From: Candidatus Poribacteria bacterium
Lineage (GTDB): Bacteria; Poribacteria; WGA-4E; WGA-3G
Direction of reading: 5' to 3'
DNA length: 64,000 nt
Assembly: GCA_022394755.1 (NCBI GenBank)
Contig: JAGFCA010000024.1
Location: 12,368 to 76,367, forward strand
This document shows, in pieces, positions 18,617-26,061 of the stretch; position 1 is the stretch's first letter; every line of letters begins with the position of its first letter. The position numbers were made by a program, and so were the translations under genes. The notes below the pieces were generated by a model, which saw nothing but the letters and a program-made list of their open reading frames with translations, was not told where the DNA came from and did no database searches.

Positions 18617-19942
18617 GTGAATTTAGATCTGCAACTTACAACACAGACCAAATTACTTATTGGAATTCTCGGGTTAGTACTAATCATAGCATTGGTAACA
18701 CAATGGGGTCCAGGTTTATATAAGATGTTCTCAGACGAGGAAATGGCTGTAAAAAAACAAACTCTTCAAACATCTAAAGATTTAGTAGCTGCTTCAAGAA
18801 TGTTGATACCCATTGAAGTAGGACTATTTGAGAAAACTGGACTTGCCGAAGAAGGTCAGGATGCTTCGATTTTTAATGATAATTTCCCTGAGACTGTCAT
18901 TCGTTCAAAGATTACATCAATTGTTAAAGAAGCAGGAATACCAAGAAATTACCAATGGAACATGGAACCTATCCCAGGCAAGAAGACAGAAAAAATCTCA
19001 CCGCATGCTCGACGTAACTTAATCAACTTTCTATATCTGGAAAAACTAAAAACAGAAAGAGATATCTTACAGTTTGAAATTGAGGATGAACAACAAACAC
19101 AAGAAGATGCTGAAGTACAAGCAGAAGAAGAGATGATGGATCTGTTGATGAATGCATGGTTAGATGAAACTGAAGATATCCCAGAGAAGGAGGAACATGA
19201 ATCCAACAATATGGATATAGAAGAGAATGAGGACGAAGCCTCTGAAGATATCAAGGAAGATGATTCCAACAATAGGGATATAGAAGAGAATGAGGACGAA
19301 GACAAAATCGAAAATGGTATAGAGAAACAACAAGATGGTGATGTCTATACGGACAAAGCTGATTCAGATATGAACCAAAATCAATCGAATGAAGAAGATT
19401 TTGTATCATTGCCAGAGGATATACCAATAACAATTCGAGTGGAACTGATTGATGTACTTCTTTCAATGATTGAACAACAACTTGTTGGAGCTGAAACGAC
19501 ACTATTTGAAAAGGAATTCTATAAATTACAAAAAGAATCGAAAGCAGGATTCTTTGGATTTGGTTCGAAAAAGCCTTCAACGGAAATTAGTTTTAACCCA
19601 AATAGTCAGATATTGAGTACTTTTCTTATTCTTATAAAAGACTATGAATCAGAATTAGATAAGAAGCATCTTTCTTCACTTCTTCTACAATATCTTGAAA
19701 ACATACAGACACAAATCGAAGAACTTACAAAAGGATTGAGATTAGCTCCTTCAACCTACACTCCAGAGAGTTATTCCATAAAAATAAAGTTTAAGGCTGA
19801 ATTGGATAAGCTTGTTAATCTCAATAGGATAATTGAAACTTCATCAAAATGGTTGATGGTAAGAGATCTTAAAATCTCTACTGACAATAAACAAGACAAA
19901 ATAACTGTTGAGTTGTTCTTGATTGCGAGGATTTATCAATGA
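18617..19942 (+). CDS. T2SS-associated bitopic membrane protein with acidic tandem repeats (GspM/GspC position), hypothetical
   Basis: GTG start with AAGGA SD. N-terminal TM (LLIGILGLVLIIALV). In-frame 63-nt-period repeats encoding SNNMDIEENEDEA / SNNRDIEENEDED. No match I can assert to a named Gsp family. Confidence 0.4.
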   Translation: MNLDLQLTTQTKLLIGILGLVLIIALVTQWGPGLYKMFSDEEMAVKKQTLQTSKDLVAASRMLIPIEVGLFEKTGLAEEGQDASIFNDNFPETVIRSKITSIVKEAGIPRNYQWNMEPIPGKKTEKISPHARRNLINFLYLEKLKTERDILQFEIEDEQQTQEDAEVQAEEEMMDLLMNAWLDETEDIPEKEEHESNNMDIEENEDEASEDIKEDDSNNRDIEENEDEDKIENGIEKQQDGDVYTDKADSDMNQNQSNEEDFVSLPEDIPITIRVELIDVLLSMIEQQLVGAETTLFEKEFYKLQKESKAGFFGFGSKKPSTEISFNPNSQILSTFLILIKDYESELDKKHLSSLLLQYLENIQTQIEELTKGLRLAPSTYTPESYSIKIKFKAELDKLVNLNRIIETSSKWLMVRDLKISTDNKQDKITVELFLIARIYQ

Positions 19943-23082: not shown

Positions 23083-26061
23083 ATGTTCAATAGCCTAAAA
23101 AATGTAATCTGTCCAATATGGAAACAGCAACAGAATCTATGTTTTGGTGCTTTAATAACATTATGTCTTTTTGGACTAATTCATACAAATTCTTTTGCCC
23201 AAGACCGAGGACAAATGGAAGTGGTTGAAAGAGATGAAGAAACAGGAAGGGCAACAAAAGTCAACTTTAACTTTACCAGTCAGGACATCAAAAACGTCTT
23301 GGAATGGTTATCACGTGAAACCGATCTAACAATCATCGCTACTGAAGACGATATCCGTGATAAAAAGTTTTCACTTATAAACCTTTTTGATGTAACTATT
23401 GATGAAGTAATTGAAGAGGTTAAAACTGTTCTGGCACAATATAACCTGACATTAGTAAGAAAAAATAGCACGCTTGTTGTTACAACCTTTGATAAAGCAA
23501 TTCTCATGACAGGTCCAGTAAAAAGAATTACCCCTGACCCTGATCAAGTAGAACTAACTGATGAAATTCAAACCTATATAATACAACTTCAAAATACCAC
23601 GGCCTCAGATCAAGTTAATGCACTAAAACCTTTATTAAATAATAAAGCAAATATATTTGCTGATAAAGTCACGAATGTCCTGGTAATTACAGATGTCTCA
23701 TCCAATATACATAGAATCGTATCAATCCTACAATTTGCAGATGCGGGTGAACGTTTCCCGTTGAAAATTGCTGTAATCCCTCTTGTTTCTGCAGATGCAC
23801 AGGCTGTAGCTCAAACCTTGAATCGTGTTTTTGAAGATAACAGAGAAGATACAAAACCGATCAGAGGTGATACCGGAATTGACCCTGTACAGATTAAGGA
23901 AGCGGTAGAACAGGGTTTAGGAGTTGAATTGATTGAAGGCATGATTCGGGTCTATGCAGATGCTAACTCTAACACACTTATACTTAAGGCATCTGAAGAT
24001 AACCTTGTAATTGTGAAAGAGATAATCAACCATCTTGATAATGCCCCTTCACTTCAGACTGAAATTCGGACATATCGTCTAAAATACGCTTCGGCAGAGG
24101 AGGTAGTAACTACACTTGAAGAAATTATCACTGGAGATAATATACAAGGTGGTAGAAGAACTATTGACAGAGAAGACATCCTTGAAATGCTTACATTTCG
24201 GCGGGATAGTGTTAATACTGGCGATCTATTTCAGGGTATCATAGGTTTAGTCAATCTCTCACGTGATGATCGATTAAACATTGTAGTTGTATCTTCCGAT
24301 CCACGTAATTTTACAATTATTGAAAAATTAATCAATGAACTTGATGAGAAAAAGACGTCAGAAGAGATAAAAATGTATTATCTGAAGCATTCAAATGCTG
24401 AAGATATGACCACTAATCTACAAGAATTGTTTGAAGGTGATACTGGTGGAGACGATGACAGATATCGTCCTTGGTGGGATCGTGGTCGCGATGATTCTTC
24501 AGATGGTGGATTTGGTGTACAAGGTGATGTACACATCGTTTTTGATGTCAGACTAAATGCCCTGCTTATCACTACTGCGGCACAAAATTTTCCAATGATT
24601 GATGAATTAATAGGAAAACTTGATGTGAGCATGCCAGAACAGGAATGGGGGACCCGTATATTCAATCTAAAGTATGCTGATGCAAATAATGTAGCAGAAT
24701 TACTCAACTCACACTACGGTGGCAACCAAAGTAGTGGTGGGAACCGTTTCGATGATTGGTGGTGGATTCGTAGTCGTCAGTCTACCACTACATCAGCACA
24801 GACCCAAGGTTCACTGGCAGGTAATGTGACTGCACAACCATATAGTAATTTGAATGCTGTAATAGTATCTACAGGGACTAAACGAAACTTTGAGTTAATA
24901 GAGGAGTTTATCGGACAGATAGATGTACCGACTCCACCGAACCAAGTAGAGATTACAAAGACAATTCGCCTTGAATATGCAACTGCGGATGCGATAGCAC
25001 AGATCTTATCACAGGTTTGGCAGGATCAGCAAGATGAGGATGGATTTAGCTTTAGTAGGTTCGTACGAGATAACTTCAATGATGAACCCACAGATATTAA
25101 CTCCTTATTTGGAAAGGTTACCGTTTTTCCTGAAACAGACACTAATTCTCTCATAGTCACAACGAGAAAACGGTATATGCCACAAGTTGAAGCTCTGATT
25201 AAAAAGCTTGATTTTGTTCGAGGTCAAGTTTGGATAGATATTAAAATTCTTGAGGTTACTCTTGATGAAAGAACAAAACTCGGAATTGAGGCTACAGTAA
25301 ATGAAAGGAACTTAGGTGGCATCCAATTAAATTCAAGAAATCCATTAATTGGAGACGCTGAATCGCAACTCGGTCTTGGTCAAGAAATATCTGGTTTCAA
25401 TTACAGCTTAGCTACAAAAGAGTATATGGCACTACTACATACGCTTATGCGTGAAAATAAAGTCAAAACATTATCTACACCTTCACTACTTACACGGGAT
25501 AGCAGACCAGCAACCTGGAGTAGCGGAAGACGGATACCATATTTACAGAGTGTTGATACAAATAGCATCTTGGGAGATACTGCAACCCAACCACTCTTTA
25601 ATTATGACTTTATTGATCCACCAGTTGGGATTAATATTGACCTAACACCGTATATTGCAAGATCTAAAGCAGGAGAAGATGGTAAAAGGACTATCGGTTT
25701 AGACATTACAAATATAAGTGCCAGCAATTTTATTGAGTTTACAGAATTTAATGCACCTATTACAGATGATAACACACTCAGTGTATATATAGATGTAGAA
25801 GATGGCCAACAGCTTGTTGTTGGAGGTATAATACGTAAGAAGCAGAAGGAAGTCGAAAATAAAGTTCCTGTTCTTGGAGATATTCCATTACTTGGCAGGC
25901 TATTCAAGAGTACAGAAACTGAAGTTCAAGACACAGAGATTGTCTTCATCATTACTCCACATATCGTCGATATTCAGAATCCACAAGATATTGAAAAGTT
26001 AAAACAAAAATCCGATAATTGGCAACAAAGCGGAAGAGACGCTTTTGAAAAAGTAGAGTAA
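23083..26061 (+). CDS. gspD: Secretin (GspD-family), paralog 2, 992 aa
   Basis: ORF track begins at TTG 23056. ATG 23083 (MFNSLKNVICPIWK...) aligns with the paralog 1 N-terminus. About 75% aa identity to paralog 1; C-terminal ~250 aa about 95% identical. Confidence 0.9.
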   Translation: MFNSLKNVICPIWKQQQNLCFGALITLCLFGLIHTNSFAQDRGQMEVVERDEETGRATKVNFNFTSQDIKNVLEWLSRETDLTIIATEDDIRDKKFSLINLFDVTIDEVIEEVKTVLAQYNLTLVRKNSTLVVTTFDKAILMTGPVKRITPDPDQVELTDEIQTYIIQLQNTTASDQVNALKPLLNNKANIFADKVTNVLVITDVSSNIHRIVSILQFADAGERFPLKIAVIPLVSADAQAVAQTLNRVFEDNREDTKPIRGDTGIDPVQIKEAVEQGLGVELIEGMIRVYADANSNTLILKASEDNLVIVKEIINHLDNAPSLQTEIRTYRLKYASAEEVVTTLEEIITGDNIQGGRRTIDREDILEMLTFRRDSVNTGDLFQGIIGLVNLSRDDRLNIVVVSSDPRNFTIIEKLINELDEKKTSEEIKMYYLKHSNAEDMTTNLQELFEGDTGGDDDRYRPWWDRGRDDSSDGGFGVQGDVHIVFDVRLNALLITTAAQNFPMIDELIGKLDVSMPEQEWGTRIFNLKYADANNVAELLNSHYGGNQSSGGNRFDDWWWIRSRQSTTTSAQTQGSLAGNVTAQPYSNLNAVIVSTGTKRNFELIEEFIGQIDVPTPPNQVEITKTIRLEYATADAIAQILSQVWQDQQDEDGFSFSRFVRDNFNDEPTDINSLFGKVTVFPETDTNSLIVTTRKRYMPQVEALIKKLDFVRGQVWIDIKILEVTLDERTKLGIEATVNERNLGGIQLNSRNPLIGDAESQLGLGQEISGFNYSLATKEYMALLHTLMRENKVKTLSTPSLLTRDSRPATWSSGRRIPYLQSVDTNSILGDTATQPLFNYDFIDPPVGINIDLTPYIARSKAGEDGKRTIGLDITNISASNFIEFTEFNAPITDDNTLSVYIDVEDGQQLVVGGIIRKKQKEVENKVPVLGDIPLLGRLFKSTETEVQDTEIVFIITPHIVDIQNPQDIEKLKQKSDNWQQSGRDAFEKVE

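What the first reader, a model, noticed from the sequence alone, without database searches (positions are those of the whole stretch)
19939..26061. Two tandem, paralogous, unusually large (~1000 aa) secretins at the 3' end of the T2SS-like cluster
Canonical T2SS operons carry a single gspD of about 650-760 aa, usually near the 5' end. Here two full-length secretin genes sit head-to-tail, each with its own signal peptide, separated by a 140-nt AT-rich spacer. N-terminal/periplasmic domains are about 70% identical while the C-terminal secretin domain is about 95% identical, with runs of identical DNA (for example 22555-22586 versus 25689-25720). That pattern suggests either gene conversion or strong constraint on the pore-forming part. 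Both carry an inserted W/R/D-rich low-complexity segment (RDRPWWERRDREPTDGGGFGVQG versus DRYRPWWDRGRDDSSDGGFGVQG) not typical of GspD. This could be a heteromeric secretin, two alternative outer-membrane channels, or one paralog acting as a pilotin-like partner.
Basis: partly seen in the sequence, partly recalled or inferred. Interest (0 to 1): 0.7.

Follow-up and report, generated by a model that had tools for sequence, protein, structure and literature searches.

The report
Tandem duplicated secretins in Poribacteria T2SS
Two intact, co-transcribed copies of the outer-membrane pore gene (secretin) end a type II secretion-like gene cluster of an uncultured Poribacteria bacterium; the large size is normal for this phylum and the doubling is common in it, but the copies keep one distinct loop apart across distant lineages, hinting at a two-subunit or two-version channel.

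Summary
Two intact GspD-type secretin genes (19939-22941 and 23083-26061) sit head to tail at the 3' end of a T2SS-like cluster (9146-26061) in a Candidatus Poribacteria MAG. They are 76% identical.

- **Size.** Each is about 1000 aa because it has N0 plus six Secretin_N units rather than three. This size holds across the phylum.
- **Copy number.** It varies among Poribacteria: 1, 2 or 3. Basal lineages and the closest outgroup have one.
- **Duplication scar.** A 27-nt relic of the upstream gene's 3' end, carrying the Shine-Dalgarno sequence, precedes copy B.
- **No detectable gene conversion in this window.** Synonymous sites are saturated (pS 0.74). The longest identical DNA run (29 nt) is not significant (p=0.08) and lies next to a stretch that is 99-100% conserved across the phylum.
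- **Selection.** Each copy is under purifying selection (dN/dS about 0.05).
- **Conversion elsewhere.** Related genomes show clear conversion mosaics. Whole-gene trees group paralogs by lineage.
- **The exception.** The loop of the third N domain (residues 341-400) keeps types shared across lineages: window copy B is 81% identical to one copy in distant pairs.

Whether the two copies form mixed or alternative channels is unresolved. I rate this a new variant of a known kind, of moderate interest.

The parts
9146..26061 (+). T2SS-like (type IV filament) cluster. Gene order: GspE-like ATPase (9146-11005), GspF (11148-12374), GspG (12492-12947), three pseudopilin-like genes (12922-15035), GspK-like with HHH repeats (15156-16652), PilM-like (16706-18556), acidic 441-aa protein (18617-19942), then the two secretins.
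   Evidence: Pfam and NCBIfam scans. GspG scores above its curated cut-off. The same gene order is found in loci L001, L005 and L011-L012; L002, L003, L006, L007, L009, L013 and L014 hold the distal part of the same cluster ending in the secretin gene(s).
19939..22941 (+). Secretin A, 1000 aa. Its ATG overlaps the stop of the upstream gene (ATGA), which suggests translational coupling. Predicted layout in residues: signal peptide 1-39, N0 44-135, N1 162-220, N2 228-318, N3 327-422, N4 429-515, N5 525-615, N6 625-711, secretin domain 717-964, C-terminal helix 969-999.
   Evidence: TIGR02517 score 365.8 against cut-off 351.35. (best solved relative is XcpQ, 5WLN). (secondary structure of a low-confidence AF2 model). 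(Foldseek top hits are T2SS GspD). (ATGA overlap).
20989..21114 (+). N3-domain loop of secretin A (residues 351-392), 'gamma' type: RRRTLDRDEMFRLLRSRRERG. This is the segment where the paralogs differ most consistently.
   Evidence: 12 of 42 positions are fixed differences between the A clade and the B clade. Loop types are listed. The signal shared across lineages appears only at residues 341-400.
22942..23082 (+). 141-nt AT-rich spacer between the two secretin genes. No terminator-like site and no stable RNA fold.
   Evidence: (fold z-score +1.68). Only the last ~30 nt are conserved with L001.
23056..23082 (+). Duplication-junction relic GTTCTTGGATTGTGAGGATCTATCA. It copies the last 24 nt of the upstream 441-aa gene before the overlapping secretin A start codon (19915-19938, GTTCTTGATTGCGAGGATTTATCA) and carries the GAGGA ribosome-binding site for secretin B.
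   Evidence: Direct reading of the sequence. Equivalent relics precede the downstream copies in L002, L013 and L014.
23083..26061 (+). Secretin B, 992 aa counted from ATG 23083. Same domain layout as A. Its N3 loop is 'alpha' type: GGRRTIDREDILEMLTFRRD.
   Evidence: TIGR02517 score 375.0 against cut-off 351.35. (P0011, 992 aa, 100% identical)..
22459..22583 (+). Stretch of secretin A with the highest DNA identity to B (88% in this 40-codon block). It includes the 26-nt and 29-nt exact runs.
   Evidence: The same block is also the most DNA-conserved between orthologs. It overlaps the end of, and mostly follows, protein residues 821-850, which are 99-100% identical across the phylum. This points to constraint, not conversion.
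26199..26232 (+). Strong terminator-like hairpin (14-bp stem, 7 GC pairs) after secretin B, between convergent genes.
   Evidence: sequence.

Best explanation
Both genes encode functional GspD-type secretin subunits for the single T2SS-like machine encoded just upstream. They arose by tandem duplication of the terminal secretin gene. The duplicated unit began about 27 nt inside the preceding gene and carried its Shine-Dalgarno sequence along.

**Shown**
- No terminator-like site was found between the genes. A strong terminator-like hairpin follows copy B.
- Each copy has been under strong purifying selection since before this clade radiated.
- The near-identity of the C-terminal part reflects constraint on the pore and gate. 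No conversion was detected in this window.
- The base domains (N0, N1) and the pore carry almost no paralog-specific changes.
- The fixed differences concentrate in the loop of the third periplasmic N domain. There, copy B carries an 'alpha' loop type shared with one copy in distant Poribacteria.

**Inferred**
- The two genes are co-transcribed.
- The duplication or duplications are old. Most of the gene has evolved in concert through gene conversion in the phylum. The N3 loop is kept distinct by selection.
- Both subunits dock on the same inner-membrane platform.
- Because their multimerisation domains are about 90% identical and they are made together, they most likely co-assemble into mixed rings whose N3 tier is chemically heterogeneous.

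My subjective split is about 40% mixed rings, about 35% separate alternative homo-oligomeric channels, and about 20% mainly dosage.
For: - **Intact paralogs and family assignment:**
- **Operon context and terminator:**
- **Junction relic:**
- **Selection:** pS is 0.74 (saturated) and dN/dS is about 0.05 between the paralogs. Between orthologs, dN/dS is 0.059 for A and 0.051 for B.
- **No conversion signal in the window:** the longest identical run has p=0.08, and the high-identity block is also high between orthologs.
- **Location of fixed differences:** 12 of 42 positions in the N3 loop, 1 of 162 in N0+N1, and 6 of 251 in the secretin domain.
- **N3-loop types shared across lineages:**. Window B is 81% identical to distant type-1 copies at residues 341-370 against 52% for type-2. 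A+B monophyly falls from 100% over the full length to 22% in this segment.
- **Conversion mosaics in relatives:**
- **Copy number 1-3 in conserved synteny:**
- **Precedent that co-synthesised secretin variants form mixed multimers:** PulD full-length plus truncated form (PMC4604470). A second paper states that related secretins need separate targeting to avoid mixed multimers (PMC3230066).
Against: - There is no direct evidence on assembly state, expression ratio or substrates.
- Copy number varies from 1 to 3, and basal lineages manage with one secretin. A second subunit is therefore not structurally required.
- Some pairs in other genomes have the same N3-loop type in both copies.
- The order of loop types is reversed between the window (gamma then alpha) and L013/L002 (alpha then beta). 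This complicates a single ancient tandem pair.
- The trees are neighbour-joining on short segments, and the N3 segment has only 58 columns.
- The AF2 model is low confidence (pLDDT 57), so loop orientation in the ring is unknown.
- The 15-fold symmetry typical of GspD channels does not allow strict alternation of two subunit types.
Confidence: 0.6

Rival explanations
1. The two copies form two alternative homo-oligomeric channels. Each docks on the same inner-membrane platform. They differ in the mid-periplasmic N3 tier, for example in substrate range, envelope attachment or the condition in which each is used. This would be analogous to Pseudomonas aeruginosa XcpQ and XqhA (from my own knowledge, not tested here).
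For: - N0 and N1 are conserved and carry almost no paralog-specific changes.
- Fixed differences lie in the N3-N6 loops.
- The N3 loop types are maintained across lineages.
- The literature view is that mixed multimers of different secretins would be non-functional (PMC3230066).
Against: - The two genes lie in one operon with no terminator or clear promoter between them.
- The secretin domains are about 90% identical, and nothing identified here would prevent co-assembly.
- No pilotin gene was looked for in the window, and the two copies share the same domain layout including a similar C-terminal tail.
Confidence: 0.35
2. The duplication serves dosage or redundancy. The last gene of a long operon is duplicated to supply more of a subunit needed at about 15 copies per machine. 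Gene conversion keeps the copies alike, and the differences between them are functionally neutral.
For: - Copy number is labile, from 1 to 3.
- Concerted evolution with long identical tracts is seen in L002 and in many pairs, as is classically the case for dosage-selected duplicates.
- Some pairs are 93% identical.
Against: - In the window lineage the copies have stayed 23% divergent with saturated dS and no conversion.
- The N3 loop differences are fixed within each paralog clade and shared across distant lineages. Neutral drift under homogenisation does not predict this.
Confidence: 0.2
3. The pair is an assembly artefact of the MAG, or one copy is a decaying pseudogene or a pilotin-like accessory.
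For: Nothing specific. The window comes from a metagenome-assembled genome.
Against: - The same tandem arrangement occurs in independent assemblies. These include multi-megabase contigs and a record titled 'chromosome: 1' (L002 from OX638351.1, L013 from a 5.08 Mb contig).
- 76% identity is far beyond strain variation.
- Both ORFs are intact, and each has dN/dS of about 0.05 against its ortholog.
- Both keep all domains.
Confidence: 0.02

Closest known systems
Canonical T2SS secretin GspD (for example P. aeruginosa XcpQ 5WLN, E. coli K12 GspD 5WQ7, V. cholerae EpsD 5WQ8)
   Same: - C-terminal secretin domain.
- N0 followed by Secretin_N repeats.
- Whole-protein score above the TIGR02517 cut-off.
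- Encoded with GspE, GspF, GspG and pseudopilins.
- Best sequence and fold matches.
   Different: - Six Secretin_N units instead of three, with 30-40 aa charged or aromatic loops in five of them.
- The gene sits at the 3' end of the cluster.
- The gene is present in two tandem copies.
- The cluster uses a PilM-like protein rather than a classical GspL/GspM/GspC set.
Alternative secretins serving one T2SS: P. aeruginosa XcpQ and XqhA (own knowledge, not checked with the tools)
   Same: Two secretin paralogs that can serve the same inner-membrane machinery.
   Different: XqhA is encoded elsewhere in the genome, not in tandem in the operon. It is much more divergent from XcpQ. No concerted evolution is known for that pair.
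Secretins with extended stacks of periplasmic N-domain rings: Thermus thermophilus and Deinococcus radiodurans PilQ (8CO1 appeared among the hits; the ring counts are from my own knowledge)
   Same: Extra N-domain tiers lengthen the periplasmic conduit.
   Different: Those are type IV pilus secretins encoded by single genes. The proteins here score as GspD and fall below the PilQ cut-off.
Mitochondrial T2SS-derived system with GspD plus a divergent GspDL paralog (Horvathova et al. 2021, PMC8134430)
   Same: Two paralogs of the pore-forming secretin C-domain co-occur in one system. The authors suggest this elaborates the pore.
   Different: That system is eukaryotic. The genes are not in tandem, GspDL is highly divergent, and the N domains are split into separate proteins.
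Concertedly evolving bacterial gene duplicates, for example tufA/tufB (own knowledge)
   Same: Paralogs cluster by lineage because of recurrent gene conversion. Mosaic identical tracts are visible.
   Different: Here one short segment, the N3 loop, escapes homogenisation and keeps types shared across lineages. In the window lineage itself no recent conversion is visible.

Membership tests
GspD, T2SS secretin (NCBIfam TIGR02517) | C-terminal secretin domain (Pfam PF00263) | tested here: met
   E-values are 4e-33 (A) and 7e-35 (B), with profile coverage 2-169 of 169.
GspD, T2SS secretin (NCBIfam TIGR02517) | Whole-protein score above the curated equivalog cut-off | tested here: met
   Scores are 365.8 (A) and 375.0 (B) bits against a cut-off of 351.35. 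The PilQ, SctC, MshL and HofQ models all fall below their cut-offs.
GspD, T2SS secretin (NCBIfam TIGR02517) | N0 domain followed by Secretin_N (N1-N3) ring-building domains | tested here: met
   There are six Secretin_N stretches. N0/N1 align to XcpQ residues 49-170. The beta-alpha-beta-beta-alpha pattern repeats six times after an N0-like fold. The STN/N0 Pfam hit is only sub-threshold (18.6 bits against a cut-off of 28.4). The repeat number is six rather than three.
GspD, T2SS secretin (NCBIfam TIGR02517) | Encoded in a cluster with GspE, GspF, the GspG major pseudopilin and minor pseudopilins | tested here: met
   GspG scores 142.6 bits against a cut-off of 88.85. GspE and GspF score high but below their equivalog cut-offs.
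GspD, T2SS secretin (NCBIfam TIGR02517) | Sec signal peptide, non-lipoprotein | tested here: inconclusive
   Judged by inspection only: a hydrophobic core followed by VYA|Q (A) or SFA|Q (B). A39 and Q40 are invariant in 71 homologs. No signal-peptide predictor was available.
GspD, T2SS secretin (NCBIfam TIGR02517) | Forms a roughly 15-mer gated outer-membrane channel that exports folded proteins | not testable with these tools
   Only a single-chain prediction was possible, and it was low confidence.
PilQ, type IVa pilus secretin (TIGR02515) | Score above the PilQ cut-off, AMIN domains, and pilMNOP context | tested here: not met
   Scores are 191.6 and 195.5 bits against a cut-off of 284.35. 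There is no AMIN hit. A PilM-like gene is present, but the pilin is GspG-type and a GspK-like gene is present.
Concertedly evolving tandem paralogs (gene conversion) | Paralogs group by lineage rather than by copy in whole-gene trees | tested here: met
   Window A+B monophyly has 100% bootstrap support. The L002 trio has 99%.
Concertedly evolving tandem paralogs (gene conversion) | Significant tracts of identical DNA between the copies in the same genome | tested here: not met
   For the window pair the feature is not met: 29 nt, p=0.08, and pS 0.74. It is met in relatives: L002 shows 94-116 nt with p<=0.001, and L001 shows 44 nt with p=0.008.
Pilotin or secretin-accessory protein | Small lipoprotein or TPR protein that binds the secretin S-domain | tested here: not met
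   Both proteins are full-length secretins with identical domain layouts.

The most novel reading that the evidence does not exclude
In Poribacteria the T2SS outer-membrane channel would be a genuinely heteromeric secretin. Two (sometimes three) subunit types would share a homogenised base and pore. Selection would keep them different in the loop of the third periplasmic ring (alpha versus beta/gamma types), giving a chemically mixed tier with its own function, such as cell-wall anchoring, partner binding or gating. To my knowledge, and in the literature searches run here, no heteromeric bacterial secretin has been described.
Probability: 0.25. Interest if true: 0.7.

Novelty: new variant of a known kind. 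Interest (0 to 1): 0.4.

Why it matters
Secretins are treated as homo-oligomers. The field assumes that related secretins must be kept from mixing.

Here a whole phylum, including the dominant sponge symbionts, repeatedly keeps two or three co-transcribed secretin paralogs in one operon. Their pore and docking parts are homogenised or tightly constrained, and one periplasmic loop is held distinct. This is a natural test case for whether secretin rings can be, or need to be, heteromeric. It is also a clean example of concerted evolution with a selectively protected segment.

The six-tier N-domain stack also bears on how secretion machines span unusual cell envelopes.

The practical impact is limited. 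The organisms are uncultured and the proteins are otherwise ordinary GspD homologs.

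Tried and rejected
- **Gene conversion as the cause of C-terminal identity in the window.** Rejected on four grounds: saturated synonymous sites, a non-significant identical run, equal conservation against distant lineages, and the same DNA-conserved block between orthologs.
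- **A regulatory RNA or a separate promoter in the spacer.** The spacer folds worse than shuffled sequence. Promoter-like hits do not exceed chance. Only the ribosome-binding-site relic is conserved with L001.
- **Remnants of a lost second copy in single-copy genomes.** tblastn downstream of the single secretin in L012, L005, L010, L006 and L003 found nothing.
- **Other secretin genes in the window.** None.
- **Structure prediction.** The model was low confidence (pLDDT 57, pTM 0.29). I used it only for secondary-structure and domain boundaries. Foldseek confirmed GspD as the best fold match but with poor TM-scores.
- **The genome-contig scan.** A single-protein query returned only 4 loci, so copy-number sampling relied on the look-up of encoding contigs.
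- **A clean split of all big-clade pairs into two ortholog groups.** Only weakly supported: 13% and 59% bootstrap on the divergent segments, and 0% over the full length.
- **Literature.** Searches for Poribacteria secretins, tandem or duplicated secretins, and heteromeric secretins found no description of this arrangement.

Full report
**1. Checking the observation**

The window holds two long same-strand ORFs at 19939-22941 (1000 aa) and 23056-26061. BLASTP gives 76% identity and 88% positives over 995 residues with four gap positions. Neither has an internal stop or frameshift.

Pfam finds six Secretin_N stretches plus a full Secretin domain in each. NCBIfam places both above the curated GspD cut-off, at 365.8 and 375.0 bits against 351.35. 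The PilQ, SctC, MshL and HofQ models all stay far below theirs.

The best solved relative by sequence is P. aeruginosa XcpQ (5WLN). It aligns to residues 91-222 (N0/N1) and 577-964 (last N domain plus secretin domain). Residues 223-576 are left as extra material.

Several details needed correcting.
- Copy B almost certainly starts at ATG 23083. This gives 992 aa, the length of the database entry for this gene (P0011, 100% identical). A GAGGA motif lies 8 nt upstream, and the start is conserved in the sister genome.
- The spacer is 141 nt.
- The quoted identical DNA run is off by 4 nt. The real run is 29 nt, A 22555-22583 = B 25693-25721. Only four exact runs of 20 nt or more exist.

**2. Genomic and taxonomic context**

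Upstream lie a GspE-like ATPase, GspF, a GspG major pseudopilin (above its cut-off) and three pseudopilin-like genes. These are followed by a GspK-like protein with ComEA-type HHH repeats, a 616-aa PilM-like protein and an acidic 441-aa protein with no family hit.

- The stop codon of the 441-aa gene overlaps the secretin A start (ATGA).
- No terminator-like site lies between the secretins.
- A 14-bp-stem hairpin follows copy B.
- The cluster is flanked by a sigma-70 gene upstream and by glycosyltransferase and squalene-hopene-cyclase-like genes downstream.

The proteins are identical to JT359_06310 and JT359_06315 of a Candidatus Poribacteria MAG.

**3. Why the proteins are large**

The AF2 model is low confidence (pLDDT 57). 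I used it only for secondary structure.

- It shows a signal peptide, an N0-like fold (44-135) and six beta-alpha-beta-beta-alpha units (N1-N6, 162-711). These are followed by the secretin domain (717-964) and a C-terminal helix.
- A self-alignment of the six units supports the repeat.
- N2-N6 each carry a 30-40-residue, low-confidence, R/D/E/W/F/G-rich loop between helix 1 and strand 2.
- Foldseek's top hits are T2SS GspD structures.

All Poribacteria homologs found are 962-1028 aa, including deep branches at 45-52% identity. These sit singly at the end of the same kind of cluster. The size is therefore a phylum trait, not a peculiarity of this pair.

**4. Gene conversion or constraint in this window**

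A codon alignment analysed with the Nei-Gojobori method gives pS = 0.74 overall, which is saturated. pS is 0.7-0.9 through most of the secretin domain, and dN/dS is about 0.05.

- One block (codons about 840-880) has higher DNA identity, at 88%.
- The same block is also the most DNA-conserved between orthologs.
- It overlaps the end of, and mostly follows, residues 821-850, which are 99-100% identical across the whole phylum.
- A codon-permutation test on the longest identical run gives p = 0.08.
- The secretin domain is as conserved against distant lineages (0.82-0.92) as between the paralogs (0.87-0.93).

The high C-terminal identity therefore reflects purifying selection. Against their orthologs in locus L001, copy A has dN/dS 0.059 and copy B 0.051. 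Both are maintained as functional genes.

**5. Footprint of the duplication**

The 27 nt before the start of copy B (GTTCTTGGATTGTGAGGATCTATCA) copy the 3' end of the upstream 441-aa gene as it abuts copy A (GTTCTTGATTGCGAGGATTTATCA).

- The duplicated unit therefore began inside that gene and carried its Shine-Dalgarno sequence.
- The TTG-initiated extension listed by the ORF finder is this relic.
- Equivalent relics precede the downstream copies in L002, L013 and L014. Those share their own differences (attAcgagg..tGtca) relative to the window.

**6. How general the pair is**

Many contigs carry two homologs. The loci read directly give the following copy numbers.

| Copies | Loci |
|---|---|
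| Two, tandem | L001 (sister species), L013 (5.08 Mb contig), L014 |
| Three, tandem | L002, from a record titled 'chromosome: 1' |
| One | L003, L006, L005, L011/L012, L010, and the deep-branching L007 and L009 |

L010 holds the nearest outgroup of the window clade. It shows the same downstream synteny as the window. No relic of a lost copy was found in the single-copy loci.

Tandem multiplication is thus frequent but not universal, and a single secretin suffices in several lineages.

**7. Evolutionary pattern**

In whole-gene neighbour-joining trees the paralogs group by lineage.

- Window A+B monophyly has 100% bootstrap support.
- Adding single-copy P0021 as their sister has 91% support.
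- The three L002 copies group with 99% support.

In many other genomes the pairs are mosaics. Some protein segments are 100% identical (typically N0-N2, residues 40-330) next to segments at 68-72%. L002 shows 96-99% DNA identity over roughly the first 200 codons after the signal peptide against 43-80% mid-gene. Its identical runs of 94-116 nt have p <= 0.001. That is gene conversion.

One segment behaves differently. In a 30-residue sliding comparison, window copy B is 81% identical to the 'type-1' copies of the distant large clade at residues 341-370. It is only 52% identical to their partners, and copy A scores 50% and 48%. Everywhere else the four comparisons are equal.

The N3 loop occurs in recognisable types.

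| Type | Motif | Where found |
|---|---|---|
| alpha | GGRRSFDREDILEMLTYRRD | Window copy B, type-1 copies of the large clade, some single copies |
| beta | DRWD..KMR..RRERG..GTVN | Basal single copies, P0021, many partner copies |
| gamma | DR.RF.RGDMFRL.RERRERG | Window copy A and some partner copies |

A tree of residues 341-400 drops A+B monophyly to 22%. It nests copy B among alpha sequences, without copy A, in 74% of 200 bootstraps.

Within the window clade, 12 of the 42 N3-loop positions are fixed differences between the A and B orthologs. The figures are 1 of 162 in N0+N1 and 6 of 251 in the secretin domain.

The simplest reading is an old duplication (or a few) whose copies evolve in concert, except for the N3 loop, with occasional loss or further duplication. 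There are caveats.
- The trees are NJ only.
- The N3 segment has only 58 columns.
- The loop-type order is reversed between the window and L013/L002.
- Some pairs are alpha+alpha.
- Lateral exchange of the loop cassette is not excluded.

**8. Mechanism**

Shown:
- There are two intact, selected secretin subunits.
- They have the same docking (N0/N1) and pore parts.
- They differ in a conserved way in one mid-periplasmic loop.

Inferred:
- They are co-transcribed, because no terminator-like site lies between them.
- Both serve the one machine encoded upstream.
- Secretin multimerisation is driven by the C-terminal domain. Co-synthesised PulD variants form mixed multimers (PMC4604470). The field view is that related secretins need distinct targeting to avoid mixing (PMC3230066). 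Two co-transcribed subunits with about 90% identical secretin domains are therefore likely to co-assemble.
- That would also explain why the base and pore are kept compatible.

The alternatives are separate alternative channels, or mainly dosage. Neither can be excluded. Variable copy number shows that a second subunit is not structurally obligatory. A pilotin-like role and a pseudogene are rejected.

**9. Comparison with known systems and novelty**

The proteins are members of the GspD family with an expanded N-domain stack. PilQ membership is not met.

Extended N-domain stacks are known from Thermus and Deinococcus PilQ. The representative search also shows far larger secretins, of 2000-5500 aa with dozens of repeats. 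Size alone is therefore not novel.

Paralogous pore subunits within one T2SS-derived system have been proposed only for the mitochondrial GspD/GspDL pair (PMC8134430). Alternative secretins such as XcpQ/XqhA are encoded apart (own knowledge). My literature searches found no description of tandem secretin paralogs within one T2SS operon, or of Poribacteria secretins.

I rate this a new variant of a known kind, with an interest score of about 0.4. The value lies in the protected-loop pattern and the possibility of a heteromeric secretin, not in the size or the C-terminal identity that first drew attention.

Noticed in passing
not in window; proteins P0126-P0269: After the Poribacteria family, the next-best relatives of secretin A among 1.84 billion representatives are giant proteins of 2000-5500 aa. 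They have a C-terminal secretin domain and 10-32 matched Secretin_N-like stretches at about 28% identity. One source names one of them 'type II secretion system protein D', and no organism names are given. I do not know whether these giant secretins have been described.
   Followed up: partly
window 15156-16652 (+): The GspK-like minor pseudopilin (498 aa) carries three strong ComEA-type helix-hairpin-helix repeats (Pfam HHH_3, E=2e-33). These score better than its T2SSK match. The same combination is conserved in all related loci. A DNA-binding-type module on the pseudopilus tip subunit raises the question of whether the system handles DNA or polymers rather than only proteins.
   Followed up: no
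window 18617-19942 (+): A 441-aa protein has an N-terminal hydrophobic segment and a long D/E/N-rich low-complexity middle. It has no Pfam or NCBIfam hit. It is translationally coupled to secretin A through an ATGA overlap. A gene of 417-467 aa abutting or overlapping the secretin start holds the same position in the Poribacteria loci L001, L002, L003, L005, L006, L011-L012, L013 and L014; the deep-branching L007 and L009 differ there, with two genes and a short gap before the secretin. It may be the unrecognised GspC/GspM-like link between the platform and the secretin.
   Followed up: no
window 16706-18556 (+): A 616-aa PilM-like actin-fold protein is about twice the length of PilM. In deeper Poribacteria the homolog also hits PilN. 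It therefore looks like a PilM-PilN fusion playing the GspL role. The cluster is a T2SS/T4P hybrid in its platform proteins.
   Followed up: no
secretin A residues 821-850 (window 22399-22488) and the equivalent in B: A 30-residue stretch (PYLQSVDTNSILGDAAVQPLFNYDFIDPPVG) is 99-100% identical across all sampled Poribacteria copies. The immediately following block is unusually conserved at the DNA level even between orthologs. The stretch is probably part of the gate or inner barrel. The synonymous-site conservation is unexplained.
   Followed up: partly
L002 12989-13497 versus 9867-9970: In the three-copy genome the spacer between copies 2 and 3 is about 510-620 nt, depending on the start codon used. 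The spacer between copies 1 and 2 is about 100-135 nt. The longer spacer contains sequence unrelated to the other spacers. Its origin was not examined.
   Followed up: no
L012 18909-20321 and L013 13421-14389: DDE transposase genes lie a few kb downstream of the secretin locus in two large Poribacteria genomes. In L013 the transposase follows the glycosyltransferase gene, and the squalene-hopene-cyclase-like gene that follows it in other loci is not seen in the stretch read.
   Followed up: no
window 26236-28654 (-): A GT2 glycosyltransferase and a squalene-hopene-cyclase-like protein are convergent with the secretins. They are syntenic with the cluster end in most Poribacteria loci. This conserved neighbourhood made it possible to show that single-copy and multi-copy loci are orthologous positions.
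   Followed up: yes
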